Below, piece by piece: positions 26,351-50,702 of a stretch of 64,000 bases of DNA. Origin of the DNA: Candidatus Borrarchaeum weybense (GTDB lineage: Archaea > Asgardarchaeota > Sifarchaeia > Borrarchaeales > Borrarchaeaceae); NCBI GenBank assembly GCA_019057385.1, contig JAHQJS010000007.1:32001-96000 (forward strand). The letters run 5' to 3'. Under the pieces are notes generated by a model, which did no database searches, was not told where the DNA came from, and saw only the letters and a program-made list of their open reading frames with translations. Position 1 is the first letter of the stretch. Each line of letters begins with the position of its first letter. The position numbers were made by a program, and so were the translations under genes.

Positions 26351-26608
26351 TATTTCTCCACAAGAAGACCCCTTCAACGTGTTGGGGGGATGAATTGCGT
26401 GTGTTACTTGTTTCACTTTCACGATACTCCCTAATCTTTAAATACGGTTTTGCAGAGATTCTAAGTAGAATTGAGCTGAGGTAACACTCGCCAGTTCTCA
26501 CATTCATATCACGTTCAGGGCAGGGACTGCCCGTAGAGCCTGTTTGACATGTCCTGCTGGGGAATGGATGATTCAGGAAGCCAGCCTACTTGTAGGGTGG
26601 TAGTTCAC
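26351..26608 (+). mobile_element. Non-autonomous IS200/IS605 derivative (left end, TATA, omegaRNA scaffold, right end; no ORF)
   Basis: Follows TTTAT. Left end CAAGAAGACCCC...GGGGGGATGAATTGC and the 3' ~90 nt (TCAGGGCAGGGACTGCCCG...GGGTGGTAGTTCAC) nearly match the tnpB element at 49326-50682. Confidence 0.9.
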
Positions 26609-26612
26609 TAAA

Positions 26613-27209
26613 TTAGATAATCTCAAGAAGATAATACAAAGCATTTCGCACATTCAATCCAGTGACTGCACTACAAGGTATAATTTTATCCTCTTCAATG
26701 TCTAAATACTCGCTGATATTTTCTAGGACTTTTGTATTACAATTTGAAAGGTCGATTTTGTTAAGACAGACTACGAAAGGAAGAGATAAAGCATCATGTA
26801 TTAATTCTATGATATCTCGGACTTTTGCTAAGTAACTCTCCGTCATAACTGTAGAATCAATTACCACAAAAACACCCTTAGCGCCTTTCCACCAAATACT
26901 CCATAGCGGCTGATAGTGTGTTTGCCCCCCTAATTCCCATAACATATATGACTGAGAATCGTCTTGCATAAAAACTCTGTAAAAGTCAATTCCAGGTGTA
27001 GGTATGTAGGATTCGCAGATAGTATCAAGATTAGCTGTGTTCTTCTTCTTTTTGACGCCATTAAATGCCGCTTCAATTTTTTTTCCAAAAACTGTTTTAC
27101 CTGCATTGGCAGGTCCCATAAGGAGCAGTTTTGTAACACTCATACGATTAAGTAATTTTGTCGGCTTATTTACCGTTTTGATCTCTGTTGTAAATGACAT
27201 AAAGCTCAC
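26613..27209 (-). CDS. Arf-like small GTPase (eukaryotic signature protein)
   Basis: G1 GPANAGKT, G2 IPTPG, G3 WELGGQ...PLW, G4 NKID, G5 CSAVTG. Confidence 0.88.
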   Translation of the reverse strand: MSFMSFTTEIKTVNKPTKLLNRMSVTKLLLMGPANAGKTVFGKKIEAAFNGVKKKKNTANLDTICESYIPTPGIDFYRVFMQDDSQSYMLWELGGQTHYQPLWSIWWKGAKGVFVVIDSTVMTESYLAKVRDIIELIHDALSLPFVVCLNKIDLSNCNTKVLENISEYLDIEEDKIIPCSAVTGLNVRNALYYLLEII

Positions 27210-27393
27210 ACACCTTTGTCAATTAAATTGATTTAACGTCATTTAAAAAGAGGTCAAGGTTCTGACGACAACGGAGAGAATTAACATTGATTTTTCGTCG
27301 ATGATGCTTTTGAAAAATAAAAGACTTATGTGATCTGTTCTTCGTTAGAAATTTTCAAAACTTTACCTAGAATCTTATATCGCTGAAAAGTCT

Positions 27394-30348
27394 CTATTCT
27401 TTGCCACTATACTCACAGGATGGATTTAAACACCTTATCTTGCTTTTAGATTTAAAGAGAGGGAGACCACATTGACATTTTTCATCGTGCAATATTGCGT
27501 AGTTGGGCAGCACAAAAGCAGTTTTACAGGGATTCTCATCATTATAATAATTACTACAACCGACAGCCAAACCGATTCTCCGAAGAAAGATAAGCGGCTC
27601 ACCGCATTTTGGACATGAATATTTTTCTTTTTCAAATTTCTCCTTCACAATCATGTCAGGATTCTGACACTGCCGATCGATACAGCAGGTAATATCATAC
27701 CCGCCATAAATATGGTGCATTTTGGGAAGTCCACATCTTTCACATCTTTCAGTCAACAATTTAGCGGTCTTTGGAACTCTATATGATATACCGCAAAGTG
27801 AGCAAATAATCTCATCTTTTTTCTTTACTAAATCGTGTCCACAATTCTTGCAGACACCAATTTTCTTTGAAGAAATATCCACTATTTTTTCTTTTTTTGG
27901 TTTTTTCTCTATTTTATTAATTTCTAAGGTTTTTTTGGGACGAGGCTTTATCACCTTGATTTTTTTCTTGTTAATTATCGGTAAGCTCTCAAAATCGATG
28001 AATGAAACAATTGATTCACATAGAATAGTTTGTTGTATTGGAGACGTAATATAAACAGGAAAAATCCAGTCTTCTTCTTTATTTAGAAATAAAGCCTGTT
28101 CTATTAATTTCTTTTTGTTTAACAACAGTGTTGCATTGATACGTACAGGAAAACTCCAATTTTTTAATCTGAAAAGTGCTTCTTGAGATTCATCAATGTT
28201 CATTCTTTCTCTAATATCCCATTCAGCAGTGATAATAGGCATTTCGTTGATTTTTTTTCGGATCTTTTCTGCATTAGCCTTTTTGATACCAAGTTTAATC
28301 ATTTCTTCTACACTGAGTTGTATCAAGTCCTTTAATCCCATAACATTTGCACTCGCTAACAATGTCGCTATTCTTGCGCCTATACCTCTAACTTGTATTA
28401 ATTCCGAAAATTCCTCAGGTAGTGAATATTCTAGTAAAACACTAAGCCTTTTGATCTTTTCACGAATTAGAATGGATTCAGAGAATTCATCACAGAAACG
28501 TTCCAAAGCCGACAATAGTCTATTAGCGTTTTGTTTTATAACGCGTGCGTCTGTCTGAAACTCAATATCAATTTTTACACCGCCTTTAAGAGATGCAAGC
28601 AAGACTGCGAATACCTTTTCTTGATGTTTTTTCAGATCTTTTACATAACCAGATGCCGAATAACTCTCAATGACATCTCGAAAGACCCCCCGTTCATTTT
28701 TTCTAACTACCATATCGTCAAATTCGCTGGCTTTTGACACAAGTGCAAGGATTTCTTCATCATCAATGATTTCATGAGAGTGAACTGCAACTGCATCAAA
28801 AAAAAGTTTTCCAGTATCTAAACGCAAATAGAACTTTGAGGTGAGGCTTCCTAAAGGTGTGGAAACAAGCCCCAGCTCTGTTTTATTTATAAATCCATCT
28901 GTGATAAGCCGTTCGATACATTCATTTGTAGTATCCATTATTTCTTGTATCTTTAGTTCATCCTTTTGAGAACTATACAAGAACGTGCTTTTCAACCAAT
29001 CACTTATTTCAGCTTCTGTTTTAATAAAATTCAAACTAATCTCTGCATTGAGATGCTCTTCTAATGTTTCGGTTAATCTTGATTCTATTTCTTTCCCAGT
29101 TAATAGTCCCCGATAGTATTCAACGTTTCTTTTTTCTGTAATGATGATCCCATATCCTAGCGCATCAAATTGAGGTCTACCTGCTCTTCCAAGCATCTGA
29201 AGTAGATCTAAAGGGCTTATTTCCTTTTTACCTTTCAAGGGGTCATAGACCGTTGTGTCTTGTACTACAACCACACGAGCAGGCAAGTTCACTCCCCATG
29301 CCAGCGTTGAGGTGGACGCAAGCACCTTTAGAAGTCTATTCTTGAAAGCGGATTCAACAATCTCACGATCATTTCTACTCAAACCCGCATGGTGAAAGGC
29401 TATTCCGTCGACAAAACAGGTACGTAAAATATCATTAACGATCTCTTTTGACATCTTCCCCAATAATTCAGCCTCTTTATTTCCTAAAAGCAATTTTTCG
29501 TTTTCTGAAAAGTTTTGTAATAATTTTTGCGCAGTATCTACAGCCCCGCGTCTACTTGAGACAAAAACTAATGCTTGACCACCAGCATCAATGTGTGGGA
29601 CGATTAAATCGTAACTGAGTTGAATTTTCAGATGCTTATTATTCCATCTATTCTTCGTATCTGGTTTATACCCACAAACGGTCGCTTCTAGATTTACAGG
29701 TCTGTAAATGTCATCAAAAACAAAGGTGCCCGATTTCTTTGCACCTAACCATGCTGCTACGTCTTCAATATTCTTCATTGTAGCACTCAAAGCTACTATT
29801 CGTAAAGCTTCATTAAGTTTTTTTAAACGTGATATCAGTACCTCTAAAGCTCCTCCTCTTTCGGGTGAGTCTAAAAGATGTACTTCATCGATTATAATAG
29901 TATCTATACGGTTGATAAACTCGTATGTAGTGCTCATGAATTTTCTACTAGCACTATCAACTTTTTCAGGTGTAGATATTATTATATGTGCTTTAGCGGC
30001 TTTTCTAGGCTCAATCTCAGTTTCTCCAGTTGTAACATACACGTTATAGCCTAAAGGTTCGAATTTATTGGTCCACTCATCAAGTTTTTCGTAACTTAGG
30101 GCTTTGTATGGTGCTATGTAAACGACTTTTTTAGTGGAATCATTTTGATGCTTTATTAAAGCCCTTAAAATAGCAAGTTCACCGATAACTGTTTTGCCGG
30201 AAGCTGTGGGAGCTGCAACAACCACATTCTCTTCCCGGTTAAAAGTGATATCAAAAACAGCCGATTGCATCTTATTAAAACGTTCAAAGGGAAATACACT
30301 TTTTAATGTTTCAGGAATCACTTCTGTTACTTTTAGTTCAACAGCCAC
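27394..30348 (-). CDS. Ski2-like (Hel308/Mer3/Brr2-type) helicase with Sec63/HhH region and C-terminal multi-Zn-ribbon domain
   Basis: FNKMQS, APTASGKT, DEVH, LSAT, FHHAGL, STLAWGVNLPA, QMLGRAGRPQFD, GIGA HhH; many CxxC pairs at the C-terminus. Confidence 0.92.
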   Translation of the reverse strand: MAVELKVTEVIPETLKSVFPFERFNKMQSAVFDITFNREENVVVAAPTASGKTVIGELAILRALIKHQNDSTKKVVYIAPYKALSYEKLDEWTNKFEPLGYNVYVTTGETEIEPRKAAKAHIIISTPEKVDSASRKFMSTTYEFINRIDTIIIDEVHLLDSPERGGALEVLISRLKKLNEALRIVALSATMKNIEDVAAWLGAKKSGTFVFDDIYRPVNLEATVCGYKPDTKNRWNNKHLKIQLSYDLIVPHIDAGGQALVFVSSRRGAVDTAQKLLQNFSENEKLLLGNKEAELLGKMSKEIVNDILRTCFVDGIAFHHAGLSRNDREIVESAFKNRLLKVLASTSTLAWGVNLPARVVVVQDTTVYDPLKGKKEISPLDLLQMLGRAGRPQFDALGYGIIITEKRNVEYYRGLLTGKEIESRLTETLEEHLNAEISLNFIKTEAEISDWLKSTFLYSSQKDELKIQEIMDTTNECIERLITDGFINKTELGLVSTPLGSLTSKFYLRLDTGKLFFDAVAVHSHEIIDDEEILALVSKASEFDDMVVRKNERGVFRDVIESYSASGYVKDLKKHQEKVFAVLLASLKGGVKIDIEFQTDARVIKQNANRLLSALERFCDEFSESILIREKIKRLSVLLEYSLPEEFSELIQVRGIGARIATLLASANVMGLKDLIQLSVEEMIKLGIKKANAEKIRKKINEMPIITAEWDIRERMNIDESQEALFRLKNWSFPVRINATLLLNKKKLIEQALFLNKEEDWIFPVYITSPIQQTILCESIVSFIDFESLPIINKKKIKVIKPRPKKTLEINKIEKKPKKEKIVDISSKKIGVCKNCGHDLVKKKDEIICSLCGISYRVPKTAKLLTERCERCGLPKMHHIYGGYDITCCIDRQCQNPDMIVKEKFEKEKYSCPKCGEPLIFLRRIGLAVGCSNYYNDENPCKTAFVLPNYAILHDEKCQCGLPLFKSKSKIRCLNPSCEYSGKE

Positions 30349-30563
30349 TACAATTCCTCAAAAATATTTGGAGTAACCAGTTCATGAATAACGCACAGGT
30401 CATTTATTGATTGAACATTCAGTAATAAACGTTTTCCATACTTCATTTTTTAATAACAAATTAAAGAAAATATCTAACGTCAGTTCTAATACTATTGCAT
30501 TGTTTTCGAATTTTGCTTCAAATATAATACACCTTAAGAAATTCATCTATTAGCATTTAAATT

Positions 30564-30638
30564 AAAAAATAAGGGGGGGAGATTTTGAGAATACTTAGGA
30601 GGGATCCAGGCGTTTGTTAAATCTCAAAATCTCTCTAC
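30564..30638 (-). ncRNA. Candidate ~70-nt hairpin sRNA with anti-Shine-Dalgarno-like loop
   Basis: Minus-strand TTTTTAAAT at 30666-30658, 12-bp perfect stem GAGATTTTGAGA/TCTCAAAATCTC, loop containing CTGGATCCCTCCT, T-rich end. Confidence 0.55.
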
Positions 30639-30853
30639 TATCATTTGAATGCACCTCATTTAAAAACAAATGAATCCTACATGAATTTTTAAATTTATAG
30701 AATAACGCATTTCCTAAGATTTCAACAACTTCTTTTAGTAGAAATCATATCTTGACTTTTTACAACCCTTTAGCATGATTTCTGCTTTATAAACGAACTC
30801 CAAAGATAGTATATGACTATCCAGTTTACTAGGAGTGTATTGAAATAACAATT

Positions 30854-32812
30854 ATGAGTTCATCGCTACTAACATACTTTCCGTATTCAAATTTGAGACC
30901 TCATCAAGACAAATTAATTCTCCTTTCAAAAAATGTCATTAAAAACGGACTTAATGCCATCATAGAGGCACCAACTGGTATCGGCAAGACTTTAGGTATA
31001 TTAGCAGGAGTTCTTCCTGAATTAATTACGCATGATATGAAATTGCTGTATGTTTGCAGAACTCACACACAAATGACCCGAGTAATTGAAGAACTAAGAG
31101 CAATCGTTGCCAAAAGAGGTCATCACATCAAAGGTATCTCAATTGGTGGTAAGCATGTAATGTGTTTAAAATCGAATGTACGCAATATTCCTGACGCTGA
31201 GATCTTAAACGATACTTGCAATGCAATTAAGAAGAAATGTCACTTTTTTCAAAGAACAAAAGGATTCAATATTGAATCTTTGCTCGATGAACTTAATAAA
31301 TGCCCAATGACTAGCCAAGATGTTTACAAATTTTCAAAAATGCATGGATTATGCCCATTTGAACTACAGAAGAAATTATTGCCAAATATGGATGTTATAA
31401 CATTATCTTATCAATATTTTTTTAACCCAATACTACGATACTACGTTATTGAGAGATTTATTGAGTTGGCAAATTGTTTTATCATCTTAGACGAGGCCCA
31501 TAACCTGCCCAGTATCGTTAAATCCATTATATCACTAAAACTTAAATTATCAAGCATCAAGAACGCTCTTGAAGAAGTACAAACTTACCCTCATATAGTA
31601 CAACTTAAAAACCCTGAAACAATCAGTGACTTCTTATCGAATATCTATGTGAAAACAATTGAATATGCACGTTCGAAAAGGAGAGAGAACAAAGAGGTCA
31701 AAATTACATCTAGAAAGGAAAAAGATACTTTTCGAAGCCATATTTCCTTATGTACGGACCTTGATAAACAAGGAATTAACTTTTTAATCGATCGGATAAT
31801 CGCATGGGGCGAAAGAATTAGAGAATATCGAGCAAAAAGCGAGAATGTTGCGCGGTCATCGCTTTATAGGGTCGGAAAGTTTCTAAAATCAATGGAAAAG
31901 GCAGTTACAGATCCCGTTTTTGAAGTGATTTTAAAAAAACAAAAACTCCCTTCTAAAGAAACATATCTTTTAGAACTTATATCATTCGATCCAAGACCTA
32001 TAACACAGCCACTATTCGACCGCGTATACGGATCTATTGCAATGTCAGGGACAATGCAACCTTTAAATGCGTTTGCAGATGTCGTTGGGCTGAATACCCC
32101 TCTTTACGAAGCGTTTAGTTCACCATACAATACCGATAATTTTCTTGTTCTTGGAGTTTCGAAACTCCATAGCAAAGGAGGAGGTAGGAAAATGCTCCTA
32201 GGAATGCAAAATGCCTATGTTGATAGGCTCACAGAGGTAATAAGAAATACAGATGGAAATATAGGTGTTTTCTGCGCATCTTATGACATTTTAAGTTTGT
32301 TGGAAACCCCATTATCAAAAAAAGTCGATGAACTTGGAAAATTTCTTTTTGTTGAACAAGCTAATATGCCATCCTATCTTAGTGAAAGAATGGTAGGAGA
32401 ATTCAAAAAATTTGGCGATCTTGGGGGAGCTGTATTATTGGGTGTAATGGGAGGTAGGAACTCAGAAGGTCAAGACTTTCCAGGAAGGACCATGTCGTCC
32501 GTATGCATTGTGGGTGTTCCTTTTTCACAGTTTAATATTAGAACTAAGCTAGAAATCCAGTATTATGAGCGTGCTTTCCCAAGAAAAGGAAGACTCTACG
32601 CTTACATCATACCTGCTATGCGACGAGCAGCACAGGCAGCTGGAAGAGTTATTCGATCCTTATCAGATCGGGGTATCATCATCTTTATGGATCAGCGTTA
32701 CCTCTACCGTACCTATAACAGATTTTTGCCGTTATGGTTACGAGAAAATATGAAACAGGTGAATATCAAACCTGGTAATTTAGGCAAAAAAGTAATAAGC
32801 TTTTTTAATTAG
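30854..32812 (+). CDS. XPD/Rad3/DinG-family Fe-S DNA helicase
   Basis: LRPHQ, EAPTGIGKT, RTHTQ, four Fe-S-type Cys (MCL, TCN, KCH, LCPF), DEAHNL, SGT, SEGQDF, QAAGRVIRS. Confidence 0.92.
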   Translation: MSSSLLTYFPYSNLRPHQDKLILLSKNVIKNGLNAIIEAPTGIGKTLGILAGVLPELITHDMKLLYVCRTHTQMTRVIEELRAIVAKRGHHIKGISIGGKHVMCLKSNVRNIPDAEILNDTCNAIKKKCHFFQRTKGFNIESLLDELNKCPMTSQDVYKFSKMHGLCPFELQKKLLPNMDVITLSYQYFFNPILRYYVIERFIELANCFIILDEAHNLPSIVKSIISLKLKLSSIKNALEEVQTYPHIVQLKNPETISDFLSNIYVKTIEYARSKRRENKEVKITSRKEKDTFRSHISLCTDLDKQGINFLIDRIIAWGERIREYRAKSENVARSSLYRVGKFLKSMEKAVTDPVFEVILKKQKLPSKETYLLELISFDPRPITQPLFDRVYGSIAMSGTMQPLNAFADVVGLNTPLYEAFSSPYNTDNFLVLGVSKLHSKGGGRKMLLGMQNAYVDRLTEVIRNTDGNIGVFCASYDILSLLETPLSKKVDELGKFLFVEQANMPSYLSERMVGEFKKFGDLGGAVLLGVMGGRNSEGQDFPGRTMSSVCIVGVPFSQFNIRTKLEIQYYERAFPRKGRLYAYIIPAMRRAAQAAGRVIRSLSDRGIIIFMDQRYLYRTYNRFLPLWLRENMKQVNIKPGNLGKKVISFFN

Positions 32813-32866
32813 CCTTCATGGTTTTTTCAAAATCATCTCTTTATAAACAAACTGAGCTCATTTTTT

Positions 32867-33403: not shown

Positions 33404-33558
33404 TTCATATTCTCTCTTATGCTTTCATTCCTAATTTTCAGGAACTTCTATTATAAGTGAATGCCTGTCGAATCAGATAATGTTATATAATTTTCTGACA
33501 GATTATTTGAAAATCTAAAAAGTTCTTTACTTGATTTTTTGAAAATGGAGATGAACAT

Positions 33559-33984: not shown

Positions 33985-34013
33985 TTCTTTATTTTTCATC
34001 ATTCCATATTTAT

Positions 34014-34269
34014 AATATTCTCCACAAGAAGACCCCTCAACTTGTTGGGGGGATGAATTGCATTACTTGTTTCACTTTCACAACAGTCTCTAACCTTTAA
34101 ATAGCTATGTGCACATAACAAGTAGGCAGAATTGAGCTGAGGTCATACTCGCCGGTTCTCAAAATAACATCACGTTCAGGGCAGGGACTGCCCGTAGAGC
34201 CTGTTTGACATGTCCCGTTGGGGAATGGATGATTCAGGAAGCCAGCCTACTTGTAGGGTGGTAGTTCAC
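34014..34269 (+). mobile_element. Second non-autonomous IS200/IS605 omegaRNA cassette
   Basis: Follows TTTAT (34009-34013); same organisation as 26351-26608; ends GTAGTTCAC and supplies the stop codon of the convergent HAD gene. Confidence 0.9.
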
Positions 34270-34871
34270 TCTGATGAAAATATTCCTGAAGAAAGAAGCG
34301 TAGGTAAGCCTTTTAAGTTGGAGATCACAGTAAATCCGCTTCCATGTCTATTTGGGTCATAGAAGTTCTTTCTATCTATAAGAACAGCATTGCATCCGAG
34401 TTCAAGTGCTGAATAGACATCATTTAATTTATCGCCAATGACGAGGACTTCAGTAGCATGTAATTGGACATTCGATAAAATTAACTTGATTTGACCAATT
34501 CTAGTCGCCTCATCGTCCCTTGTAGCAATGGGTATACCTTGTATACCTAGTCTTTCAATAATTATTCGAGTTACATTTGCACCTTGAAATGTCACCACTC
34601 CAAGTCTGTATTTAGATGATAACTCTCTTAACAGTTCAGGTGAGTCATCTAGAAATTCAAGTTGACTAAGGGAAGCGAGTTCATATTCTTCAATGGTTCT
34701 CGATACTACTTCAAATTTTTCAGTATCCCAAATCCTCGTAACAAGTTCCAACAACGACTTAAACTCTACTCCTAACAAGTCTTCAATACGACTAACTACT
34801 TTCCCCCAGTCTATTGAAAGGTGAACTAACGTTCTATCCAAGTCGAAGATTATACCTTGGACTTTAGACAT
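34266..34871 (-). CDS. HAD-superfamily hydrolase
   Basis: IFDLDRTL, VIGDKLNDV. Confidence 0.85.
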   Translation of the reverse strand: MSKVQGIIFDLDRTLVHLSIDWGKVVSRIEDLLGVEFKSLLELVTRIWDTEKFEVVSRTIEEYELASLSQLEFLDDSPELLRELSSKYRLGVVTFQGANVTRIIIERLGIQGIPIATRDDEATRIGQIKLILSNVQLHATEVLVIGDKLNDVYSALELGCNAVLIDRKNFYDPNRHGSGFTVISNLKGLPTLLSSGIFSSE

Positions 34872-34887
34872 GATTTTTCACCACGAT

Positions 34888-40493: not shown

Positions 40494-40499
40494 TGAAGT

Positions 40500-42603: not shown

Positions 42604-42777
42604 TCCGTTAACTTTTAAATTAAACTTGAGACTTTAATTCGCAATTCTTTAAAATTGTATCGAAAAGCATCCAAGAAGATATGTTCTGTACTGAGTTATT
42701 TGATATTAAAAAAGAATGATTTTAAATTTGTTAAATAAAAAGCATTCAAAGAAAAGTATAGGAGGAGAAGAGTAGTT

Positions 42778-44376
42778 CTAGCGCTGCCACTTAGGCACTC
42801 GAAGCATTGTATCACAGAATCCGCATTTAATATATCCTTCTTCGTCTACTTTATCCATATCAAGCATCCCTCCACATTCTGGACATGCTTTATCTACTAC
42901 GTCGATTTCCTGAGTTATTTCTATGTTCTTCTTTACGTCTTGCATGACCTCAAAGATGAAACCAGTAAGAATAGCCTCTTCATTTGAATATACTGCGACT
43001 GTTAACAACCCCTGACCCGCATAACCTGATGCTGTGATTTCTGTTGCAAAATCGAATTCACCGTATTTAGTCCTTCCAATATAGGCGCTGTAGGCAATGT
43101 AATGATCTCCGTGTTCTCCAACAAACCTTTCATCCCGATCGATGGGTATAAGCCCTCTGACTCGTTGTTCTGCCATTGCAAACGCCACGTTTGGATCACC
43201 ATCAAATTTGAAACTTGCTTTATTACTTTTTAGCTTCCCTTTCTTTAGGGACATCAAAATCCATTCTTGGTCGGCATCCTCTCCCGTAAGCATAGGACAT
43301 ACGGATTTTAGTTCTAGGGGTTTCATGTCCTGTGTATATAATTTTCCTGTAGGATCGCGGAACATGATTATCCCGGTCAAAATGTCGTCAACGCAGCGAA
43401 TGGGCTGAAGCTGAAAATTCGCTGACTGAGAACCACCAGGCTTAATTACTCCCAGATCTATTATACCTGTTTTCGGATTGATTTTTTCAAGGGCTTGAGG
43501 AGTTTCTAACTTTACACTGACATCTGTGATGCTCTGGGGTGAATTGTTTTCAACTTTGATACCAACTTTCAAATATTGTCCTGCGGTTTCATATCCCCGT
43601 TTCGAAGATACCAAACCTGGAACAAACGATGCGTCAGAAAATGCTAATGTTGCTTCAGGACTGCCTGCTGGGTTTGTTACAATGGGCGTTAAAGGTATCG
43701 TTTGGAGTTTCTTTCGTTGTCTAAATACCACAACGCCTAATACTGCAATAATGGATAATCCTATGACTATACCAAAAAATGCCTCTATTGGCATATCTGG
43801 AATTGGAGATTTAATGCCAATATCCCTTTCTGCATAAACATCATAGGTCCATGTGTTTGCTTCGAGGTTATTTACAATATATTGTCCGTTATACTTAAAT
43901 GAATAATAGAATGCTAGCCAAATATCTACTCTACCTTCATAATCACTAGGTAACTCATCGAGGTTTAATTTAGTGTCATATCTTTCGCCATTATTTGACA
44001 ACGTGTGGGAGATATCATCTCCGCCACTGAAAGTATGATCCATATCTACTGTACTAACTTCCCACTGATACCCTTCGATCAACAATTCTGAACCTGGTTC
44101 GATCCCACGTATTTGAAGTTCTCCGCGACATGATGCTTGATCTCGCTCACGGATCGGTTCTTGGACTCTTAAGATCACAACAAATTCACAGCGCCACATA
44201 CCATTCTGCTGATCGTAGACTTGGTAATGTCTCTCCTCGTATCTTTCTTGGCTATCTTGTGCAACAGTAGCGTTAGGGAATACTGTCATTGCTAGTAAAA
44301 GGAATGCAAGACAGGCGATAACAACAACTCTGCCTTTTTTCACTGTTTTTTCCCTCTTAAAATTTTTAAGCTCCAT
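42778..44376 (-). CDS. Type I membrane protein: signal peptide, ectodomain, TM, cytoplasmic beta-sandwich plus alpha/beta domain, C-terminal Zn ribbon
   Basis: Signal ending AQD; TM FFGIVIGLSIIAVLGVVVF followed by RQRKK; KVGIKVENNS...LGVIKPGGSQSANFQL; CPECG...CGFC. Confidence 0.8.
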   Translation of the reverse strand: MELKNFKREKTVKKGRVVVIACLAFLLLAMTVFPNATVAQDSQERYEERHYQVYDQQNGMWRCEFVVILRVQEPIRERDQASCRGELQIRGIEPGSELLIEGYQWEVSTVDMDHTFSGGDDISHTLSNNGERYDTKLNLDELPSDYEGRVDIWLAFYYSFKYNGQYIVNNLEANTWTYDVYAERDIGIKSPIPDMPIEAFFGIVIGLSIIAVLGVVVFRQRKKLQTIPLTPIVTNPAGSPEATLAFSDASFVPGLVSSKRGYETAGQYLKVGIKVENNSPQSITDVSVKLETPQALEKINPKTGIIDLGVIKPGGSQSANFQLQPIRCVDDILTGIIMFRDPTGKLYTQDMKPLELKSVCPMLTGEDADQEWILMSLKKGKLKSNKASFKFDGDPNVAFAMAEQRVRGLIPIDRDERFVGEHGDHYIAYSAYIGRTKYGEFDFATEITASGYAGQGLLTVAVYSNEEAILTGFIFEVMQDVKKNIEITQEIDVVDKACPECGGMLDMDKVDEEGYIKCGFCDTMLRVPKWQR

Positions 44377-44717
44377 AATTATCTAAGTTAATTTTTCACC
44401 GATCCTTAATATTTTTTTTGAGAACTTTCTTCGTATATTTAGAACTTTCGCAATTCTTTACCAGTAAAAATCAGATTAATACAAAGAAAACGAGATCCAC
44501 AGAATAATCTCTTTTCAACCAAAAAAGCTCTACGATCTTGTTTTAAAAAAAATAGGATGTTCTTGTGTAATTGTGATAGTACAGTATACTATTTGCTTCT
44601 CGGACTGTCCTTCATTTTTTATCTACTTTTATGCAGTAAAACCCCTTCCTTTAGGTGGTGATCAATTCAAGCATTGGCTTCAATGAGGCTCTAAAAATGT
44701 GTGTAGATTATAGAAAA

Positions 44718-45509
44718 CTATGTTTCCTTCAGAGAATGTTCTTTCCACTCTTCGATAAGTTTTTTGGTTTTTTTCCGAAGACGGGTTTTTTCTGAGAAGT
44801 AGTCATCTGGGAGAAGCACAAGAGGAACAAACTTACAGGTTTCTCGAAGTTCAATATTTCTCTCTCTTTTTCTTAGAAGAAGAAGTGCGTAGCGTTTTGC
44901 CTTTTCAATAAATTCAGCGTCAAATATATATGATTTTATGAGAATTTCAAACTCTTTACAATCTTTGTGTTCTTTTCGAACTGTAACAATAGTCGTGTCC
45001 CCACGTGTGATAACGAATTCTGAGTTACCTAGGACTTCTTTTTCTAATGTGACATTTTCGAGTGATAATATATTTCCTTTCTTTATCGCAAAAAGCGGTT
45101 GTTCTATACCTTTACTTCCAATCGACTTTGTTAATACCTTGACATAGCATTCCTTGGGGGGCTTCAGACAGGGGCCTGCCTCATATCTCATCTTAATTTG
45201 AAGTGCAATTTCTTTTCCCGTCTCTGTGAGAACATATCGCATTACTGGAGAGTTAATTCTCTTACAGTCCTTTCTTACAATAAGTCCTCCTTTTAAAAAG
45301 CGCCGAACCATTTTTAAAAGTATCTTTGATCCAATATTAAGCTTTCCAGCGTACCAGAAAAGCAATTTACCACCTTGAGAAAGCGCTGACGTACCAATAT
45401 CCCATCGTTCATACATGGGAAAAATGCCTTCGTTTTCATGGAGAAGAACAAGAAAATGATCTTCTAGATCCGATAAAGCACTGTTCAGAATTATTACCTC
45501 ACGGAACAA
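44718..45509 (-). CDS. Hypothetical protein with wHTH-like N-terminal region
   Basis: 263-aa ORF with RYVLTETGKEIA wing motif; the annotated TTG start lies inside a mini hairpin element. Confidence 0.6.
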   Translation of the reverse strand: MFREVIILNSALSDLEDHFLVLLHENEGIFPMYERWDIGTSALSQGGKLLFWYAGKLNIGSKILLKMVRRFLKGGLIVRKDCKRINSPVMRYVLTETGKEIALQIKMRYEAGPCLKPPKECYVKVLTKSIGSKGIEQPLFAIKKGNILSLENVTLEKEVLGNSEFVITRGDTTIVTVRKEHKDCKEFEILIKSYIFDAEFIEKAKRYALLLLRKRERNIELRETCKFVPLVLLPDDYFSEKTRLRKKTKKLIEEWKEHSLKET

Positions 45510-45538
45510 GCCCCCTCACTTGTTAGGGGGTGATTGAC
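45495..45538 (+). mobile_element. Miniature single-hairpin IS605-type element (PATE/REP-like)
   Basis: CAAGCCCCCTCACTTGTTAGGGGGTGATTGAC resembles the tnpB left-end hairpin and ends TTGAC; preceded by ATTAT rather than TTTAT. Confidence 0.55.
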
Positions 45539-45551
45539 ATAATCAGCCTAA

Positions 45552-46298
45552 TCATATGGACAGACATTTTATGCCTCTGTTCATACATACCTTCAAAAAT
45601 GGGTTTACACAACTGCACATCGACCCTTCAACGCCTTCCATCGGTACCCGTATGACGTTGCACAACTGTCCCCATTTCTTATTCCAGTTGATCAATGTTG
45701 CAACAAACTTTTCTGAGAGAATATCAAAAGATAGGGGCCCTTCTGTAATCTTAAGGGAAGTAAGTTTTTCTGCTAGATTTACTACTGCTTTTCTTGCGTC
45801 TGCATCATCGCTACACACTATAACGTCACAAGTCAATTCTTCGTCAATTTCAGACAGACATTCTGCTCCAAGAGGTTTGAAGGCTGAAACAACTCTCACA
45901 TGGTTTCCTAATATCTGACTTGCTTGTTGAGCACAGGAACCAGCTTCAGTTTGCATAAAAACTGGCTCACCATCATCTGTTAATTCTATCGGAAGTGTTG
46001 TATCTACTAAAATGGTATTCTCGTTCAGATATTCTTTTATTTCTTCAAGTATAGGAATTTGTTCTTGAAATGGAACAGTTAGAACAACAATATTTGCGTT
46101 TTTTGCGGCGGCGTCCAATTTCATAGCAGTGACACGATCTTCTGGTGCGCCTGTAATATTTCGAATTTCTTCTGCGATTTCAATAGCAAATTTCTCATCC
46201 TTAGATCCAATAATGAGGTTGACATCATTATGTTTCGCCCATCGTAAGGCAAAACCTATCGCGCGTTTATCCTTTGCATCTATTATGGCAACCTTCAT
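45552..46298 (-). CDS. NADPH-dependent F420 reductase (NpdG/Fno)-like protein with degenerate dinucleotide-binding loop
   Basis: MKVAII, LIIGS, VVLTVPF, ILVDTTLP, GSCAQ, VVSAFK, DVIVCSDD. Confidence 0.8.
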   Translation of the reverse strand: MKVAIIDAKDKRAIGFALRWAKHNDVNLIIGSKDEKFAIEIAEEIRNITGAPEDRVTAMKLDAAAKNANIVVLTVPFQEQIPILEEIKEYLNENTILVDTTLPIELTDDGEPVFMQTEAGSCAQQASQILGNHVRVVSAFKPLGAECLSEIDEELTCDVIVCSDDADARKAVVNLAEKLTSLKITEGPLSFDILSEKFVATLINWNKKWGQLCNVIRVPMEGVEGSMCSCVNPFLKVCMNRGIKCLSI

Positions 46299-46357
46299 TG
46301 GACTTTCCCTCGATTCCGTATAAAGTATCTACAGGATATTTATTTTTAACTATTGGA

Positions 46358-48289
46358 CTACTTTAACTTGCTTGATAGTTTTTTGTTCAGTTCAATGAGT
46401 TTTTTCCTGATCTCTGCGCGTCTATTTACAAGCTTCTCGATCTCAGTTTCCTGCTCGGATAATTTATTAACATAATTCTTGCGTAATTTGACTTCTTCTT
46501 CACTAGTTCCAAGTGCTTTGATATTCTCTCTAAGACGTTGTTGTTCAGTATTTGCAGCATCAACCATAGTTTCCAAATGTTCTTCTTCTTGTTCTAGGTC
46601 TTTGATTTCCTTTTTAATTTTTATAATTTCTAATAACTGAGCATACTGATGTTCTTGGATGAGTTTATCGGCCAATAATCGATCTAAATCTTCTTTTGTA
46701 AGGTGCGCTTTATATGTTGAAGTATATCTAACTCGCTCCAATTCAAGTTTCGCTGTAAATGTTTCTTTTGGTTCAAGCGTAAATTGATAACGTAAATAAT
46801 TGTTTGTCTTTTCTATTGGAAGTTCTTTCCCGATAGGCTTAAAATCTGATTTTGGTTCATCGATAATTAAAATTAGTTTTTCCTTTTTCTTGTTTTTCAC
46901 GTCATATGTTATAATCTGTTTTTCAAGTAATCGTTCTGCTATGTATTCCTTGCTGATGTCTACTCCAACACCACGTGATTCATAGCGTGTCTCTCGATTT
47001 ATAAGAACTTCTTGTTCCAATGCATAATTTAGCAGGCTTTCATCACCAACACGAAGATGACTCATCATACATTCTCCGGAATATGCATTGTCAATAAAAA
47101 CTGTCGCAGGACCAGCTTCTATAACGATGTTTGAGGGAGAGTCGTTTACAATTTTTAGACACGACAATGGGTTTTTATCAGTCTTGCCAGGAACATAGTA
47201 AGCTATCTTGCTTGAAGGAACCTTTGCTTGGAACAAAGGAACCAAGGCACTTTGATTTCTGAGAATCTTCACAGGAGAATCTATTTTGAACACGAAGAAA
47301 TCTCCAACTTCCTCTGTAGTAGCGGCTGTTTGAACTGACTTATCGAATTCTTCAGCTAAATCTGCTGCAAAAGCCATACCTGAAGTAGGGGCGGGAGCAG
47401 GTGGTGCGTATTCTTTTTCAGCTTTTGTTTTTTTGGCTCGCATTCCTCTTCTTCTATCAGAAGTCATATCTTCCAATGTACCTTCTGCAATAACGGGTTC
47501 AATTCCATATTGAGATGGACGTTCGATACGTGGTCTCATTATACGCCACGGTGAATAAAGATCGTACACGAATGAAATAGGTAATCCCGTCACCAGGGTC
47601 AACATAACATTATCCCAGTCATTTGTAGTAGTATTGTCTACAATCGCCCATCCTTGAATGGCTGCCTCATCTTCAGAATGAATAAGTCTATAAGCGATCT
47701 TCCAAGAAGGTATGGAACCAATGAAACCAATGAAAACGTCCTTTTGTTCTTCACTCGTAAAATTGATGCTTATCGCTTTTATATTCTCCCGCTTAGTATT
47801 GGAGATGGTTTCTAACGCAATATCCAAGTCCTTCTGCAATTTTTCATTTCTTATAGAGATTCCTTGAATATCTAAAGATCGAATTATATTAATTTTACCA
47901 GAATGATCTTTTATTAAAGCCACAAAAACTTCTCGTTTTTCTGTTTCCTCGCTTTCAGTTCCAACAATTTTTCCTAGAATAGTACTTTCTTTAAGGGCAA
48001 TTTCTACTTCTTCTCCAACCAGTTCGCGAAGTAGTCCTTTGAAGGATTCAGTCGTAGGGACAGTAATACTTAGCGATCTCAAAATTTCATTAATCTCGAC
48101 TTTTGAATCAAACGCAACATTCCTAACTTTATCGCCCTTAACAAGCACGATCAGGGATTTGAGAAGGTCATCTAATGCTTCTTGCTTAAAAAACAGCTTC
48201 AGTTCTTTACTATCATGCATTCCAGTTGCAGCGAAGAATCCCACGCCGCAACGATAGAGTACAACTTCTGAGATTTTAACATCTGACAC
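46358..48289 (-). CDS. DUF4139/DUF4140-family protein with coiled-coil tail
   Basis: VVLYRCGVGFF, DDLLKSL, PSWKIAYRL, QGWAIVDNTTTNDWDNVMLTLVTGLPISF. Confidence 0.85.
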   Translation of the reverse strand: MSDVKISEVVLYRCGVGFFAATGMHDSKELKLFFKQEALDDLLKSLIVLVKGDKVRNVAFDSKVEINEILRSLSITVPTTESFKGLLRELVGEEVEIALKESTILGKIVGTESEETEKREVFVALIKDHSGKINIIRSLDIQGISIRNEKLQKDLDIALETISNTKRENIKAISINFTSEEQKDVFIGFIGSIPSWKIAYRLIHSEDEAAIQGWAIVDNTTTNDWDNVMLTLVTGLPISFVYDLYSPWRIMRPRIERPSQYGIEPVIAEGTLEDMTSDRRRGMRAKKTKAEKEYAPPAPAPTSGMAFAADLAEEFDKSVQTAATTEEVGDFFVFKIDSPVKILRNQSALVPLFQAKVPSSKIAYYVPGKTDKNPLSCLKIVNDSPSNIVIEAGPATVFIDNAYSGECMMSHLRVGDESLLNYALEQEVLINRETRYESRGVGVDISKEYIAERLLEKQIITYDVKNKKKEKLILIIDEPKSDFKPIGKELPIEKTNNYLRYQFTLEPKETFTAKLELERVRYTSTYKAHLTKEDLDRLLADKLIQEHQYAQLLEIIKIKKEIKDLEQEEEHLETMVDAANTEQQRLRENIKALGTSEEEVKLRKNYVNKLSEQETEIEKLVNRRAEIRKKLIELNKKLSSKLK

Positions 48290-48408
48290 TAAAACGCCTC
48301 CAGATCTACTATATGCTATAAAATAATAATGAAGATATCATTATAATAAAAAATGCTCTCGTTACTTATTAAACTTCTTCAAAAGAAACAAAGATAAAAA
48401 AAGACTTG

Positions 48409-49152
48409 CTAGACTCGACTTTTGATGCCAAATTGATAAACTTCAATATTATTTTCCTTACAGGCGACAATTCTACTCTCAGAAATTTCAATGCAGACAA
48501 TTGCCTTACGTATCTTTTCATGCGGTATACCAAATTTCTTGGCATATGGGATGGAGAATCGACTCACTTGCCCTATAGCAGCATCAGTTCCCTTAATCTC
48601 AATTTCAACCAACATGTGATTTTCCTTTGAATCAATAAAAACCATATCGATTACTCCACCCTCAACTTCAACTTCTCGAGATTCGTATTTTAACCCTTTT
48701 TCAATCATAGAAGGGAAGTTTGCTAAAATTCTATCAATATCCTCCTCAGATAAAGCCAGTTGTTCAAATCCTTCTATTTGGTCAGATTCAAGAAGTTTTT
48801 CTAGATAAAAACTTATCTCAAACTTCTGTCCTTTTCCGCCCTTTTCATTAGGAAAGATATGCCACGGTCGTTCTTGATCCATTACAAGAAGTATCGGTAT
48901 CTGATTTACATTCAATTTTTTACTTCTTGAGATTGGTAACATACCCCCTCCACTACTACTTACACGCACTTGTGCTCTTTGGCTCGCTTTTCTTATCTGA
49001 TCTAAGATTGTTTCAATTTCGGTTTCGCTAAGCATATTTGAGGTGATTATTTGATAATCGATTTGATGTTTTTCCTTAACTTTTTCTAATAGATCCTTAA
49101 TATCCCTTAGATTTTCATAGTTTTCTTTGATGTAAAGAACATGTTTTCTCAT
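48409..49152 (-). CDS. Protein with C-terminal NucS-like PD-(D/E)xK domain
   Basis: SEEDIDRILANFPSMIEKGL...REV...GVIDMVFID...LVEIEIK...AIGQV. Confidence 0.75.
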   Translation of the reverse strand: MRKHVLYIKENYENLRDIKDLLEKVKEKHQIDYQIITSNMLSETEIETILDQIRKASQRAQVRVSSSGGGMLPISRSKKLNVNQIPILLVMDQERPWHIFPNEKGGKGQKFEISFYLEKLLESDQIEGFEQLALSEEDIDRILANFPSMIEKGLKYESREVEVEGGVIDMVFIDSKENHMLVEIEIKGTDAAIGQVSRFSIPYAKKFGIPHEKIRKAIVCIEISESRIVACKENNIEVYQFGIKSRV

Positions 49153-49325
49153 ATCTACTCACTTTATTTTACGACTTCGCATTGTGTTTTTGGATGATTA
49201 AATAAAAGGAATCACTAAATAAAAGGAATCACTTTCTCTGAATTAGAAAGTTTGATAATTGAGGGAAATTTTCAAATTCTTGATACTGTAAACATGTATT
49301 ATTATTCTACACCAAAATTGTTTAT

Positions 49326-50682
49326 GGTAACTATTTCGCAAGAAGACCCCTCAACTTGTTAGGGGGGATGAATTGCGTTTTCACTTTCACCATAGTGTCC
49401 CCAATCTTTAAATAGGTTTTTGCGTCTAGTACATCTAATAAAATGAATAACAGAGGGAAAACAGGGATAGGTGTGATGAAACGGACTTACAGATATCGCC
49501 TGTACCCGACCACACAACAGGCGACTACTTTAACTCAATGGCTCACTACCTGTCGACTGTTGTACAACAACGGTCTTGCCGAGCGGAAAAACGCATGGGA
49601 AACTTATAAAAAATCAGTTACCTATGGTGAGCAAGCTAATCAACTGAAAGGCGCTAAAAAGACCAACCAGTTTTTACAAGCAGTTCATTCTCAGGTACTC
49701 CAAGACACACTGAGAAGACTGGATAAGACTTTTAACAACTTTTTTAGACGCATCAAGAAGGGTGAGAAAGCAGGTTACCCGCGATTTAAGGGGAAATACC
49801 GATATGACTCTTTTACCTACCCGCAAAGTGGGTTCACCCTCGATTACCGCAAGAAGAAACTCCGCCTCTCGAAGATTGGAGCTATCACCATTAAACTACA
49901 CCGTCCTATCCCCTCTGAAGGCGTGATCAAGACCTGTACCATCAAACGCGATGTCGACCACTGGTATGCTTGTTTTTCAGTAGAACTTCCCAATCATGAG
50001 TCCCAGAGAAAGCTACAGAAAGCGATAGGGGTAGATGTTGGGCTGAAGAGTTTACTGACGTTAAATAATGGGGAGACCATAGCTAACCCCCGCTGGTTGA
50101 GAACGTCAGAGAAGAAAGTAGCCAAAGAGCAGCGAAGGAAAGACAGGAAGGTTAAGGGCTCAAATAACCGCTACAAGCAGAACAAAAAGGTAGCACAGGT
50201 ACATAGGAAGATACACTATCAACGAAAGGACTTTCATCACAAGCTCAGTCGGAAATTGGTCGATAACTATGACCTAATTGTGTATGAGAACTTAAAGATC
50301 ACCAACATGGTCAAAAACCATCATGTAGCTAAGTCGATTAGTGACGCAGGATGGGGACAACTAATGTGTTTTACGGAGTACAAAGCGGAGGAAGCTGGTA
50401 CTCTCGTAGAATATGTGAGTGCCTATAATACCACACAACTGTGTAGCCAGTGCGGGAAGCTGGTGCCGAAAACACTGGCAACACGAATCCACAGCTGTCC
50501 TTACTGTGGACTGGTGTTAGCTAGAGACCATAATTCTGCCATCACGGTGTTACACCGATCAACCCGCTATTTAGAATCACTGTCATCATCAGGGCAGGGA
50601 CTGCCCGTCGAGCCTGTTTGACATGTCCCGTTGGGGAATGGAGGATACAGGAAGCCACCCTACTTGTAGGGTGGTAGTTCAC
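49326..50682 (+). mobile_element. IS200/IS605-family element carrying tnpB only (IS1341-like), no tnpA
   Basis: TTTAT at 49321-49325, left-end hairpin, tnpB ORF, right-end hairpin CCACCCTACTTGTAGGGTGG followed by TAGTTCAC. Confidence 0.92.
49443..50621 (+). CDS. tnpB: TnpB RNA-guided endonuclease (probable start 49476, MKRTY)
   Basis: YRYRLYPT, GYPRFK, RuvC GVDVG / VYENL / RDHNSA all intact, Zn finger CSQCG...CPYCG. Confidence 0.95.
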   Translation: MNNRGKTGIGVMKRTYRYRLYPTTQQATTLTQWLTTCRLLYNNGLAERKNAWETYKKSVTYGEQANQLKGAKKTNQFLQAVHSQVLQDTLRRLDKTFNNFFRRIKKGEKAGYPRFKGKYRYDSFTYPQSGFTLDYRKKKLRLSKIGAITIKLHRPIPSEGVIKTCTIKRDVDHWYACFSVELPNHESQRKLQKAIGVDVGLKSLLTLNNGETIANPRWLRTSEKKVAKEQRRKDRKVKGSNNRYKQNKKVAQVHRKIHYQRKDFHHKLSRKLVDNYDLIVYENLKITNMVKNHHVAKSISDAGWGQLMCFTEYKAEEAGTLVEYVSAYNTTQLCSQCGKLVPKTLATRIHSCPYCGLVLARDHNSAITVLHRSTRYLESLSSSGQGLPVEPV

Positions 50683-50702
50683 GGTTGCAAAGAAGCTGTG
50701 AT
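50530..50702 (+). ncRNA. Predicted TnpB omegaRNA (scaffold overlapping tnpB 3' end, guide GGTTGCAAAGAAGCTGTGAT); 5' end approximate
   Basis: Established TnpB organisation; hairpins GGGCAG-GGA-CTGCCC and the right-end stem are conserved in three copies, and similarity stops abruptly after TTCAC. Confidence 0.75.

What the first reader, a model, noticed from the sequence alone, without database searches (positions are those of the whole stretch)
26351..50702. ORF-less omegaRNA cassettes give one TnpB several guides in trans
Seen: two cassettes (26351-26608, 34014-34269) share the left end, the internal TATA (CTTTAAATA) and the ~90-nt 3' scaffold with the intact tnpB element (49326-50682). In place of tnpB, both carry a hairpin (AGAATTGAGCTGAG-loop-CTCGCCRGTTCT) whose differences fall in the loop or keep pairing, while the linkers have diverged. 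Flanks after TTCAC give three different guides: TAAATTAGATAATCTCAAGA, TCTGATGAAAATATTCCTGA and GGTTGCAAAGAAGCTGTGAT. Established: the TnpB guide derives from the right flank. Inference: these are transcribed stand-alone guide-RNA genes under structural selection, a dispersed multi-guide system serving a catalytically intact TnpB.
Basis: partly seen in the sequence, partly recalled or inferred. Interest (0 to 1): 0.8.

Follow-up and report, generated by a model that had tools for sequence, protein, structure and literature searches.

The report
Gene-less guide-RNA mini-transposons in Asgard archaeon
The two cassettes are real, but they are mobile, gene-less miniature copies of an IS200/IS605 transposon that keep a promoter and the TnpB guide-RNA scaffold, which is a kind of element already described in bacteria and not a new multi-guide system built around one nuclease.

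Summary
Cassettes 26351-26608 and 34014-34269 share the left end, TATA box and 93-nt right-end scaffold with the tnpB element 49326-50682, and they carry a hairpin in place of tnpB.

The host, an Asgard archaeon, has 15 such minis and 13 full elements, 12 of them with intact TnpB, plus one Y1 tnpA. It is not one TnpB with a few guides.

The minis are mobile. A sister genome has scarless empty sites where TTTAT is directly joined to the 'guide'. Each 20-nt guide matches only its own flank, so the guides are by-products of insertion.

The hairpin (0.92 identity) and scaffold (0.90) are far better conserved than the linkers (0.54-0.63). The TATA box lies 22-26 nt upstream of the hairpin. The five-helix fold is supported by covariation. 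The hairpin occurs only in minis, in three Asgard genera and in 29 metagenome contigs.

Best reading: these are PATE/MITE-type non-autonomous IS200/IS605 elements that express stand-alone omegaRNAs, used in trans by resident TnpBs for their own retention.

This concept is already published (Altae-Tran 2021/2023; Meers 2023). What is new here is the Asgard host and the mini-specific 5' hairpin. The scan had reached the same verdict on other DNA of this genome. Transcription and TnpB loading were not tested.

The parts
26346..26350 (+). TAM / target motif TTTAT abutting the left end of mini 1
   Evidence: TTTAT, or a one-base variant, precedes the LE in 14/14 G000 minis and in the full copies. 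An empty site in the sister genome reads TTTAT followed directly by the guide.
26351..26608 (+). Mini element 1 (258 nt, ORF-less IS200/IS605 PATE/MITE)
   Evidence: An orthologous copy is present in sister genome G004. No copy was found at the corresponding but diverged locus of G003.
26369..26389 (+). LE subterminal imperfect palindrome (CCCCTTCAAC GTG TTGGGGGG), the presumed TnpA recognition hairpin
   Evidence: Alignments. Its sequence changes together with the RE hairpin between lineages.
26436..26444 (+). TATA-like box CTTTAAATA, also present in the full element's LE upstream of tnpB
   Evidence: A TATA-like motif is seen in the aligned minis (identity 0.77-0.88, against 0.54-0.58 for the neighbouring linkers). 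It lies 22-26 nt upstream of the hairpin in the minis where the spacing could be scored, in each of the three genera and in the metagenome copies.
26467..26498 (+). Mini-specific hairpin AGAATTGAGCTGAG-GTAACA-CTCGCCAGTTCT
   Evidence: Mean identity is 0.92. 98.1% of cells are paired, and 2 of 11 pairs have compensatory double changes. It is found only in minis and has no homology to the tnpB body.
26516..26608 (+). 93-nt omegaRNA scaffold / right end (stem A, nested stems, RE terminal hairpin 26581-26600, tail TAGTTCAC)
   Evidence: It is 93% identical to the scaffolds of the full tnpB copies. Covariation: 0/500 shuffles reach the observed score.
26609..26628 (+). Predicted guide of mini 1 (right flank)
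   Evidence: Its position immediately 3' of TTCAC. The only 20/20 match in the genome is this flank itself. It lies next to the stop codon of an Arf-like GTPase gene on the minus strand.
34014..34269 (+). Mini element 2 (256 nt): LE hairpin 34033-34052, TATA 34095-34103, hairpin 34128-34159, scaffold 34177-34269
   Evidence: It is 86% identical to mini 1.
34270..34289 (+). Predicted guide of mini 2 (right flank)
   Evidence: The best off-site match (15/15) has no TTTAT upstream.
49326..50682 (+). Full IS1341-type element: LE hairpin 49347-49367, TATA 49406-49414, tnpB 49476-50621, scaffold 50590-50682
   Evidence: OrfB_IS605, TNB and HTH domains; ISDra2 TnpB, E 2.6e-58. It is one of 13 copies in the genome.
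50683..50702 (+). Predicted guide of the full element (right flank)

Best explanation
The two cassettes belong to a family of non-autonomous, ORF-less IS200/IS605 mini-transposons (PATE/MITE type) in an Asgard archaeon.

Each mini keeps four things: (i) the left and right subterminal hairpins and cleavage motifs (TTTAT at the left flank, TTCAC at the right end) that a Y1 TnpA needs to move it as single-stranded DNA; (ii) the archaeal TATA promoter of the left end; (iii) a mini-specific 5' stem-loop; (iv) the complete 93-nt TnpB omegaRNA scaffold.

Inferred mechanism: the LE promoter starts transcription at about the foot of the hairpin and reads through the scaffold into the flank, so the first ~16-20 nt of whatever DNA lies beyond TTCAC becomes the guide. 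Any of the 12 intact, closely related TnpB proteins encoded elsewhere in the genome can load this RNA in trans. When TnpA excises the mini, the donor site becomes TTTAT+guide. That is exactly what the mini's own RNA targets, so TnpB cuts it and recombination with a sister chromosome restores the element. This is the homing/retention model of Meers et al.

On this reading the many different guides are a by-product of many insertions. They are not a guide repertoire aimed at other targets.

Shown here: family structure, mobility, boundaries, conservation pattern, RNA fold covariation, intact TnpB catalytic residues.

Inferred: transcription start, trans-loading, cleavage, mobilisation by the single tnpA, and the role of the hairpin. 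The hairpin is probably a stabilising or biogenesis leader that takes the place of the coding sequence lying 5' of the scaffold in full copies.
For: - Genome census: 14 complete minis plus 1 split across contig ends (244-258 nt) and 13 full copies.
- 12 of the 13 full copies have intact ORFs of 381-391 aa counted from the conserved MKRTY/MTRTY start. All keep D/E/D and 4 Cys, and they are 77-88% identical to each other.
- The closest solved relative is ISDra2 TnpB.
- One Y1 tnpA is present. It sits in an IS605-like element whose RE also ends in GGTAGTTCAC.
- Mobility: two G000 minis have precise empty sites in sister genome G004. One reads ...TAGTTTAT|GAAAAGGCG..., with no target duplication.
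- Three G000 copies are near-identical to one another.
- Guides: each 20-mer matches only its own flank. The best other hit, 16/16, lacks the TAM.
- Conservation by region across 41 minis: hairpin 0.92, scaffold 0.90, RE tail 0.98, TATA 0.77-0.88, against 0.54-0.63 for the linkers.
- Fold: 5 helices, 97.9% paired, 13 pairs with double changes, 0/500 shuffles reach the observed score, and slid controls pair at 31-46%.
- The TATA-to-hairpin spacing is 22-26 nt in three genera even though the linkers are unrelated in sequence.
- The mini scaffolds carry the same genus-specific variant as the resident full tnpB elements: G000 TTTGAC/GATGATT versus G005 TTGGAC/GATGAAT. Within-genome identity is 0.93 (G000) and 0.85 (G005), against 0.81-0.84 between the two genomes.
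- Published precedent: PATEs often encode omegaRNAs that are acted on in trans (PMC10055086), and stand-alone mobilised omegaRNAs function in trans (PMC10691335).
- The 5' region upstream of the functional ISDra2 scaffold is dispensable for cleavage (PMC10097598).
Against: - There are no expression data for this organism. The promoter and start site are inferred only from a TATA-like motif and its spacing.
- Trans-loading by TnpB, and cross-mobilisation by the one tnpA, are untested. The tnpA's own element has a different scaffold and partly different end hairpins.
- The strong conservation of the hairpin is mostly sequence invariance. Only 2 of its 11 pairs covary, so a DNA-level or protein-binding role cannot be separated from an RNA-structural one.
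- No function of the hairpin is known from characterised omegaRNAs.
- Mini 1 is shared with the sister genome at the same site, so some copies are old and may be immobile.
Confidence: 0.8

Rival explanations
1. One reading: the cassettes are dedicated stand-alone guide-RNA genes that the host, or a single TnpB, keeps as a dispersed multi-guide system to target several loci. This would be a CRISPR-like repertoire.
For: The promoter-like TATA box, hairpin and scaffold are conserved. TnpB is catalytically intact. Each cassette has a different flank. [quoted passage not shown]
Against: The cassettes are mobile transposons with empty sites in a sister genome. There are 12 intact TnpBs, not one. Guides match only the adjacent DNA and no other TAM-flanked site. 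Insertion sites differ between congeners. The elements are not arrayed or linked to tnpB.
Confidence: 0.05
2. The minis are simply transposition-competent deletion derivatives. Their internal RNA module is not expressed or used, and the hairpin and scaffold are conserved because the single-stranded DNA transposition machinery needs them, or because all copies descend recently from one master copy.
For: IS200/IS605 transposition does depend on DNA hairpins. The hairpin is conserved mainly as sequence, with few compensatory changes. Transcription was not tested.
Against: TnpA of this family is known to need only the subterminal hairpins and cleavage motifs, yet the whole 93-nt scaffold, the 32-nt hairpin and the TATA box are conserved across three genera while the LE/RE hairpins themselves are swapped. 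Internal scaffold helices covary. The scaffolds track those of the resident tnpB elements. The copies are 80-96% identical, so they are not all recent.
Confidence: 0.12
3. The mini RNAs act as regulators of neighbouring genes, either through antisense read-through into the convergent genes or through RNA-guided TnpB binding at gene 3' ends, as TldR repressors do.
For: Both window minis point into the 3' ends of convergent genes: an Arf-like GTPase and a HAD hydrolase, whose stop codon is supplied by the RE.
Against: All the TnpBs keep their catalytic residues, unlike the nuclease-dead TldRs. Insertion sites are not conserved between species. Intergenic and 3'-end positions are what purifying selection against gene disruption would leave behind anyway.
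Confidence: 0.03

Closest known systems
PATE-like ORF-less IS200/IS605 elements that encode omegaRNAs (Geobacillus stearothermophilus; Meers et al. 2023, PMC10055086)
   Same: No protein gene. LE and RE are shared with tnpB-bearing elements of the same genome. They carry an omegaRNA that must be used in trans by a TnpB encoded elsewhere, are mobilised in trans by one TnpA, and their guide is the right flank. The same selfish retention logic applies.
   Different: The host here is an Asgard archaeon. An archaeal TATA promoter from the LE sits a fixed 22-26 nt before a conserved, mini-specific 5' stem-loop that no full element carries. The mini lineage is old enough to span three genera with swapped end hairpins.
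Stand-alone omegaRNAs of OMEGA systems (Altae-Tran et al. 2021, as summarised in Altae-Tran et al. 2023, PMC10691335)
   Same: [quoted passage not shown]
   Different: Trans activity has not been shown for this family. I read only the 2023 summary, not the 2021 paper.
ISDra2 TnpB-omegaRNA complex (PDB 8BF8/8EXA/8H1J; Nakagawa et al. 2023, PMC10097598)
   Same: The protein is a clear homologue (E 2.6e-58 over residues 4-360) with the same D-E-D and zinc-finger residues. The order of scaffold helices matches: a terminal hairpin next to the guide, and CAGG at -35..-32 pairing with an upstream CCUG, like stem 2. The 5' region upstream of the functional scaffold is dispensable in ISDra2.
   Different: The scaffold is shorter (93 versus 116 nt, with no long stem 3b). 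The TAM is TTTAT rather than TTGAT. The pseudoknot partner is not established here; the stem-A loop GRA is complementary to UUC at -5..-3, which is an inference only.
CRISPR arrays / Cas12 guide systems
   Same: Several different guides can serve one family of RuvC nucleases.
   Different: There is no array, no repeats flanking spacers and no acquisition machinery. Each guide is fixed by a transposon insertion and targets that element's own empty site.

Membership tests
IS200/IS605 non-autonomous mini element (PATE/MITE) | Subterminal imperfect palindromes at both ends, similar to each other and to those of a protein-coding element in the same genome | tested here: met
   LE CCCCTCAAC-TTG-TTGGGGGG and RE CCAGCCTAC-TTG-TAGGGTGG are shared with 13 tnpB copies. 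The LE and RE hairpins change together between lineages.
IS200/IS605 non-autonomous mini element (PATE/MITE) | Insertion 3' of a short conserved motif, with no target-site duplication and no terminal inverted repeats | tested here: met
   TTTAT lies at the left flank. The empty site in G004 joins TTTAT directly to the right flank.
IS200/IS605 non-autonomous mini element (PATE/MITE) | No protein-coding gene inside | tested here: met
   The elements are 244-258 nt long. The only overlapping ORF (26247-26507, minus strand, 86 aa) runs through regions that are variable and contain indels, and it has no counterpart in mini 2.
IS200/IS605 non-autonomous mini element (PATE/MITE) | Multiple dispersed copies with insertion polymorphism between related genomes | tested here: met
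   15 copies in G000, copies in all 4 congeners, and filled versus empty sites.
IS200/IS605 non-autonomous mini element (PATE/MITE) | A Y1 (HUH) TnpA in the genome that can mobilise it in trans | tested here: inconclusive
   One full-length Y1_Tnp is present (131 bits), in an element whose RE ends in the same GGTAGTTCAC. Cross-mobilisation cannot be tested here.
Stand-alone TnpB omegaRNA (OMEGA guide RNA) | Scaffold homologous to the 3' end/RE of a tnpB element, immediately followed by a variable flank | tested here: met
   The 93-nt scaffold is 0.93 identical to the full-copy scaffolds, and identity among the flanks is 0.29.
Stand-alone TnpB omegaRNA (OMEGA guide RNA) | Conserved secondary structure with covariation | tested here: met
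   36 pairs, 97.9% paired, 13 pairs with double changes, 0/500 shuffles reach the observed score, slid controls at most 46% paired. No Rfam family matches.
Stand-alone TnpB omegaRNA (OMEGA guide RNA) | A cognate TnpB with an intact RuvC active site in the same genome | tested here: met
   12 copies with D, E, D and CxxC...CxxC. Pfam domains OrfB_IS605, TNB and HTH.
Stand-alone TnpB omegaRNA (OMEGA guide RNA) | Transcribed, loaded by TnpB in trans, and directs TAM-dependent cleavage | not testable with these tools
   The only support is the TATA-like box with conserved spacing.
CRISPR-like dedicated multi-guide locus | Guides organised as an array, or kept for targets other than the element's own insertion site | tested here: not met
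   The copies are dispersed single elements, and each guide matches only its own flank.

The most novel reading that the evidence does not exclude
The ORF-less elements are not repeated accidental deletions. They form an old, independently evolving lineage of 'guide-RNA transposons'. This lineage acquired its own promoter-proximal 5' stem-loop (GAATTGAGCTGAGGTNACACTCGCCARTTC), which is absent from every tnpB-bearing element. The stem-loop would be required to make or stabilise a primary-transcript omegaRNA without TnpB-dependent processing of a tnpB mRNA. That would be a natural intermediate between a transposon-embedded omegaRNA and a free-standing guide-RNA gene.
Probability: 0.25. Interest if true: 0.45.

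Novelty: new member of a known kind. Interest (0 to 1): 0.3.

Why it matters
For annotation, these loci should be labelled as IS200/IS605 PATE/MITE elements carrying omegaRNAs. They should not be labelled as host sRNA genes or as a new defence or guide system.

For the field, they extend the published 'stand-alone omegaRNA / PATE' phenomenon to Asgard archaea. They also supply a natural minimal cassette of about 170 nt, made of an archaeal promoter, a leader hairpin and a 93-nt scaffold, for a TnpB closely related to ISDra2.

The one unexplained and possibly useful detail is the leader hairpin. It is as conserved as the scaffold, is confined to the gene-less elements, and is kept across three genera. 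If it controls omegaRNA biogenesis or stability, it would say something about how guide RNAs became independent of their nuclease genes.

Tried and rejected
- Rfam: no family matched the cassettes or the tnpB 3' end, at gathering threshold or at E<=10.
- Origin of the hairpin: a local alignment of the mini middle part (linker, hairpin, linker) against all 13 tnpB bodies scored no better than shuffled sequence. A fuzzy motif search found the hairpin nowhere outside the minis in the genome. So the hairpin is not a recognisable tnpB remnant.
- A conserved RNA structure in the full copies upstream of the scaffold, which could be the hairpin's counterpart: RNAalifold found none. That region is coding sequence with a variable (TCA)n serine repeat.
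- An internal TATA-like motif in the tnpB 3' end (CTATTTAGAA): rejected as a promoter because neither its sequence nor its spacing is conserved among copies.
- Trans targets of the guides: none found.
- Viral contigs: the hairpin motif is absent.
- K-turn, C/D-box and bulge-helix-bulge readings of the hairpin were considered by eye and dropped, because the motifs are not present.
- A pseudoknot between the hairpin 5' arm (GAA), or the stem-A loop (GRA), and the RE tail UUC: this cannot be tested because the tail is invariant.
All three were rerun successfully.
Full report
**Observation.** The finding's coordinates are exact.
- Cassette 1 (26351-26608) and cassette 2 (34014-34269) each begin directly after TTTAT and end in TAGTTCAC.
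- They are 86% identical to each other.
- They share three things with the tnpB element 49326-50682: a left-end palindrome, the box CTTTAAATA and a 93-nt right end.
- In place of tnpB, both carry AGAATTGAGCTGAG-loop-CTCGCCRGTTCT. Their differences fall in the loop or turn U-A into U-G, while the flanking linkers have diverged.
- The three right flanks are as quoted in the finding.

**Host and protein.**
- The closest relatives of the TnpB lie in MAGs named Candidatus Borrarchaeum, Sifarchaeum and Promethearchaeota, so the host is an Asgard archaeon.
- The assembly is 4.18 Mb in 8 contigs with about 37% GC.
- The 381-aa protein has the OrfB_IS605, TNB and HTH domains.
- It aligns over residues 4-360 with ISDra2 TnpB (8BF8, E 2.6e-58), with the RuvC D, E, D residues and four zinc-finger cysteines in place.

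**Genome-wide picture.** The window shows only 3 of about 28 members.
- BLAST with end pairing finds 14 complete minis of 244-258 nt. A fifteenth is split between the end of contig 8 and the start of contig 6.
- There are 13 full elements of 1341-1384 nt.
- Twelve full copies have intact tnpB ORFs that all keep the catalytic and zinc residues. They are 77-88% identical at protein level.
- The genome has one Y1 transposase gene, in an IS605-like tnpA+tnpB element whose right end also terminates in GGTAGTTCAC.
- 'One TnpB with several guides' is therefore wrong on the numbers. It is a family of about a dozen nucleases and about 28 guide-bearing elements.

**The minis are transposons.**
- All 14 complete minis have TTTAT, or a one-base variant, at the left flank, and each has an unrelated right flank. 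The full copies also have TTTAT.
- Two G000 minis have precise empty sites in the sister genome G004. At one...GCTAGTTTAT|CAGAAC...GTTCAC|GAAAAGGCG... in G000 corresponds to ...GCTAGTTTAT|GAAAAGGCG... in G004, with no duplication.
- This is the scarless signature of IS200/IS605 and it fixes the boundaries.
- Mini 1 of the window is present at the same site in G004. It was not found at the corresponding, diverged locus of G003.
- Three G000 copies are nearly identical to one another, which points to recent movement.

**Guides.** Each 20-nt right flank of the 27 complete elements matches only itself in the genome. The best other matches are 14-16 nt, and the ones I inspected lack TTTAT. The guides are therefore what the insertions happen to abut. 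This is what the published homing/retention model predicts, and it is not what a repertoire aimed at other loci would look like.

**What is conserved.**
- Mean pairwise identity across 41 minis from six genomes: hairpin 0.92, scaffold 0.90, RE tail 0.98, TATA box 0.77-0.88. The linkers are 0.54-0.63 and the LE outside its palindrome is about 0.64.
- In the minis where the spacing could be scored, the TATA-like box lies 22-26 nt upstream of the hairpin, although the intervening sequence is unrelated between genera. An archaeal transcript would then start at about the foot of the hairpin. This is an inference.
- RNAalifold on 48 distinct modules gives five helices: the hairpin, stem A, a nested pair of stems, and the RE terminal hairpin.
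- Pair counts: 97.9% of cells paired, 13 pairs with changes on both sides, no shuffle out of 500 reaching the observed values, and slid controls at 31-46% paired.
- In the hairpin itself, 2 of 11 pairs show double changes (U-A to C-G; C-G to U-A by way of U-G), 5 vary on one side only, and 98.1% of cells pair. The hairpin is thus supported as a helix, but it is conserved mainly as sequence.

**Where the hairpin occurs.**
- In G000 it is found only in the 15 minis.
- It shows no similarity to the tnpB body.
- In 400 Asgard genomes the motif occurs in 8, which belong to three genera in three families, with zero hits for the reversed control.
- In every case I inspected it sits in an ORF-less element of about 215-260 nt with the same order of parts. 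This includes a lineage whose LE and RE palindromes are of a different type.
- All 29 metagenome contigs carrying the motif show an LE about 120 nt upstream and no tnpB. Three of them lack a recognisable right-end tail and belong to a variant subfamily.
- It was not found in viral contigs.
- The minis are therefore a long-lived lineage of their own and not repeated fresh deletions.

**Link to the resident nucleases.** The 93-nt scaffold of the minis carries the same genus-specific variant as the full tnpB elements of the same genome: TTTGAC...GATGATT in G000 and TTGGAC...GATGAAT in G005. Full-versus-mini identity is 0.93 within G000 and 0.85 within G005, against 0.81-0.84 between the two genomes. 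This fits use of the mini RNAs by local TnpBs, or frequent recombination with them. One mini carries the (TCA)n linker typical of full copies.

**Comparison with ISDra2** (PMC10097598).
- The functional ISDra2 scaffold is 116 nt, and everything 5' of it is dispensable for cleavage.
- Here the shared scaffold begins right after the RuvC-III coding motif, as it does in ISDra2.
- It has CAGG at -35..-32 paired with an upstream CCUG (like stem 2), a short stem 3, and a terminal hairpin next to the guide.
- The 93 nt therefore probably form a complete scaffold, and the mini hairpin is a 5' leader occupying the place that coding sequence takes in full elements.
- Its role is not known. It could be stability, start-site context, processing or a DNA-level function.

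**Known or new.**
- Meers et al. (PMC10055086) describe PATE-like, gene-less IS200/IS605 elements. [quoted passage not shown]
- Altae-Tran et al. [quoted passage not shown]
- New here: the Asgard host, the archaeal promoter arrangement, the mini-specific conserved leader hairpin, and its spread over three genera.
- An earlier follow-up of this scan reached the same verdict on other DNA of this genome. I tested the claim independently here.

**Verdict.** Observation confirmed. Interpretation partly supported. The cassettes are a new member of a known kind, of modest interest.

Noticed in passing
window 34266-34271: The stop codon of the minus-strand HAD-hydrolase ORF (34266-34871) is supplied by the last bases of mini 2's right end (TCA of TTCAC). 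By my reading, without the insertion the frame would run 4 codons further into the TTTAT-side flank.
   Followed up: partly
G000 contig 8 end (204155-204285) and contig 6 start (1-163); L010, L016: The two contig ends overlap by 37 nt inside a fifteenth mini, so the assembly breaks at this repeat and the two contigs probably abut.
   Followed up: partly
L010:20-163 (G000 contig 6): In this mini the linker between hairpin and scaffold is TCATCATCATCATCA, the serine-codon repeat typical of full tnpB copies. This suggests recombination between minis and full elements.
   Followed up: no
G000 C4:228256-228578, C7:724881-725204, C4:891431-891757; C7:236289-236619, C7:366702-367035: Two further ORF-less mini families (3 and 2 copies, 323-334 nt) have the same TTTAT, LE palindrome, TTCACTTTCAC, TTAAATA box and the same RE terminus. 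Their internal scaffolds are different and longer. The promoter-plus-scaffold mini design recurs for other omegaRNA types in this genome.
   Followed up: partly
window 50560-50590 and the other 12 full copies: A variable-length (TCA)n serine-codon repeat ends the TnpB coding region just before the scaffold. Counted from the conserved MKRTY/MTRTY start, ORF length ranges over 381-391 aa. It acts as a variable spacer between the essential coding sequence and the omegaRNA.
   Followed up: no
L031:1300-3170 (G000 C7:194020-195890): This is the only tnpA in the genome. It sits in an IS605-like tnpA+tnpB element whose end palindromes (CCCCATCC...GGGTGGGG) resemble those of the minis in the third genus (G315/G316) more than those of the G000 minis.
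   Followed up: no
window 26524-26526, 34185-34187, 50598-50600: The 3-nt loop of stem A (GGA or GAA across copies) is complementary, allowing G-U, to UUC at -5..-3 before the guide. It could be the counterpart of the ISDra2 pseudoknot. This could not be tested because the tail is invariant.
   Followed up: no
L162, L173, L182 (metagenome contigs): This subfamily has the same hairpin and a related LE (…GAGAAGACCCCCCTACTTGTAGGGGGG…), but no recognisable GGTAGTTCAC tail within 190 nt of the hairpin. It may have a different right end.
   Followed up: no
window 26613-27209 (minus strand): An Arf/Ras-like small GTPase gene, typical of Asgard archaea, ends 5 nt from mini 1's right end. The predicted guide would be antisense to its last codons.
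   Followed up: no
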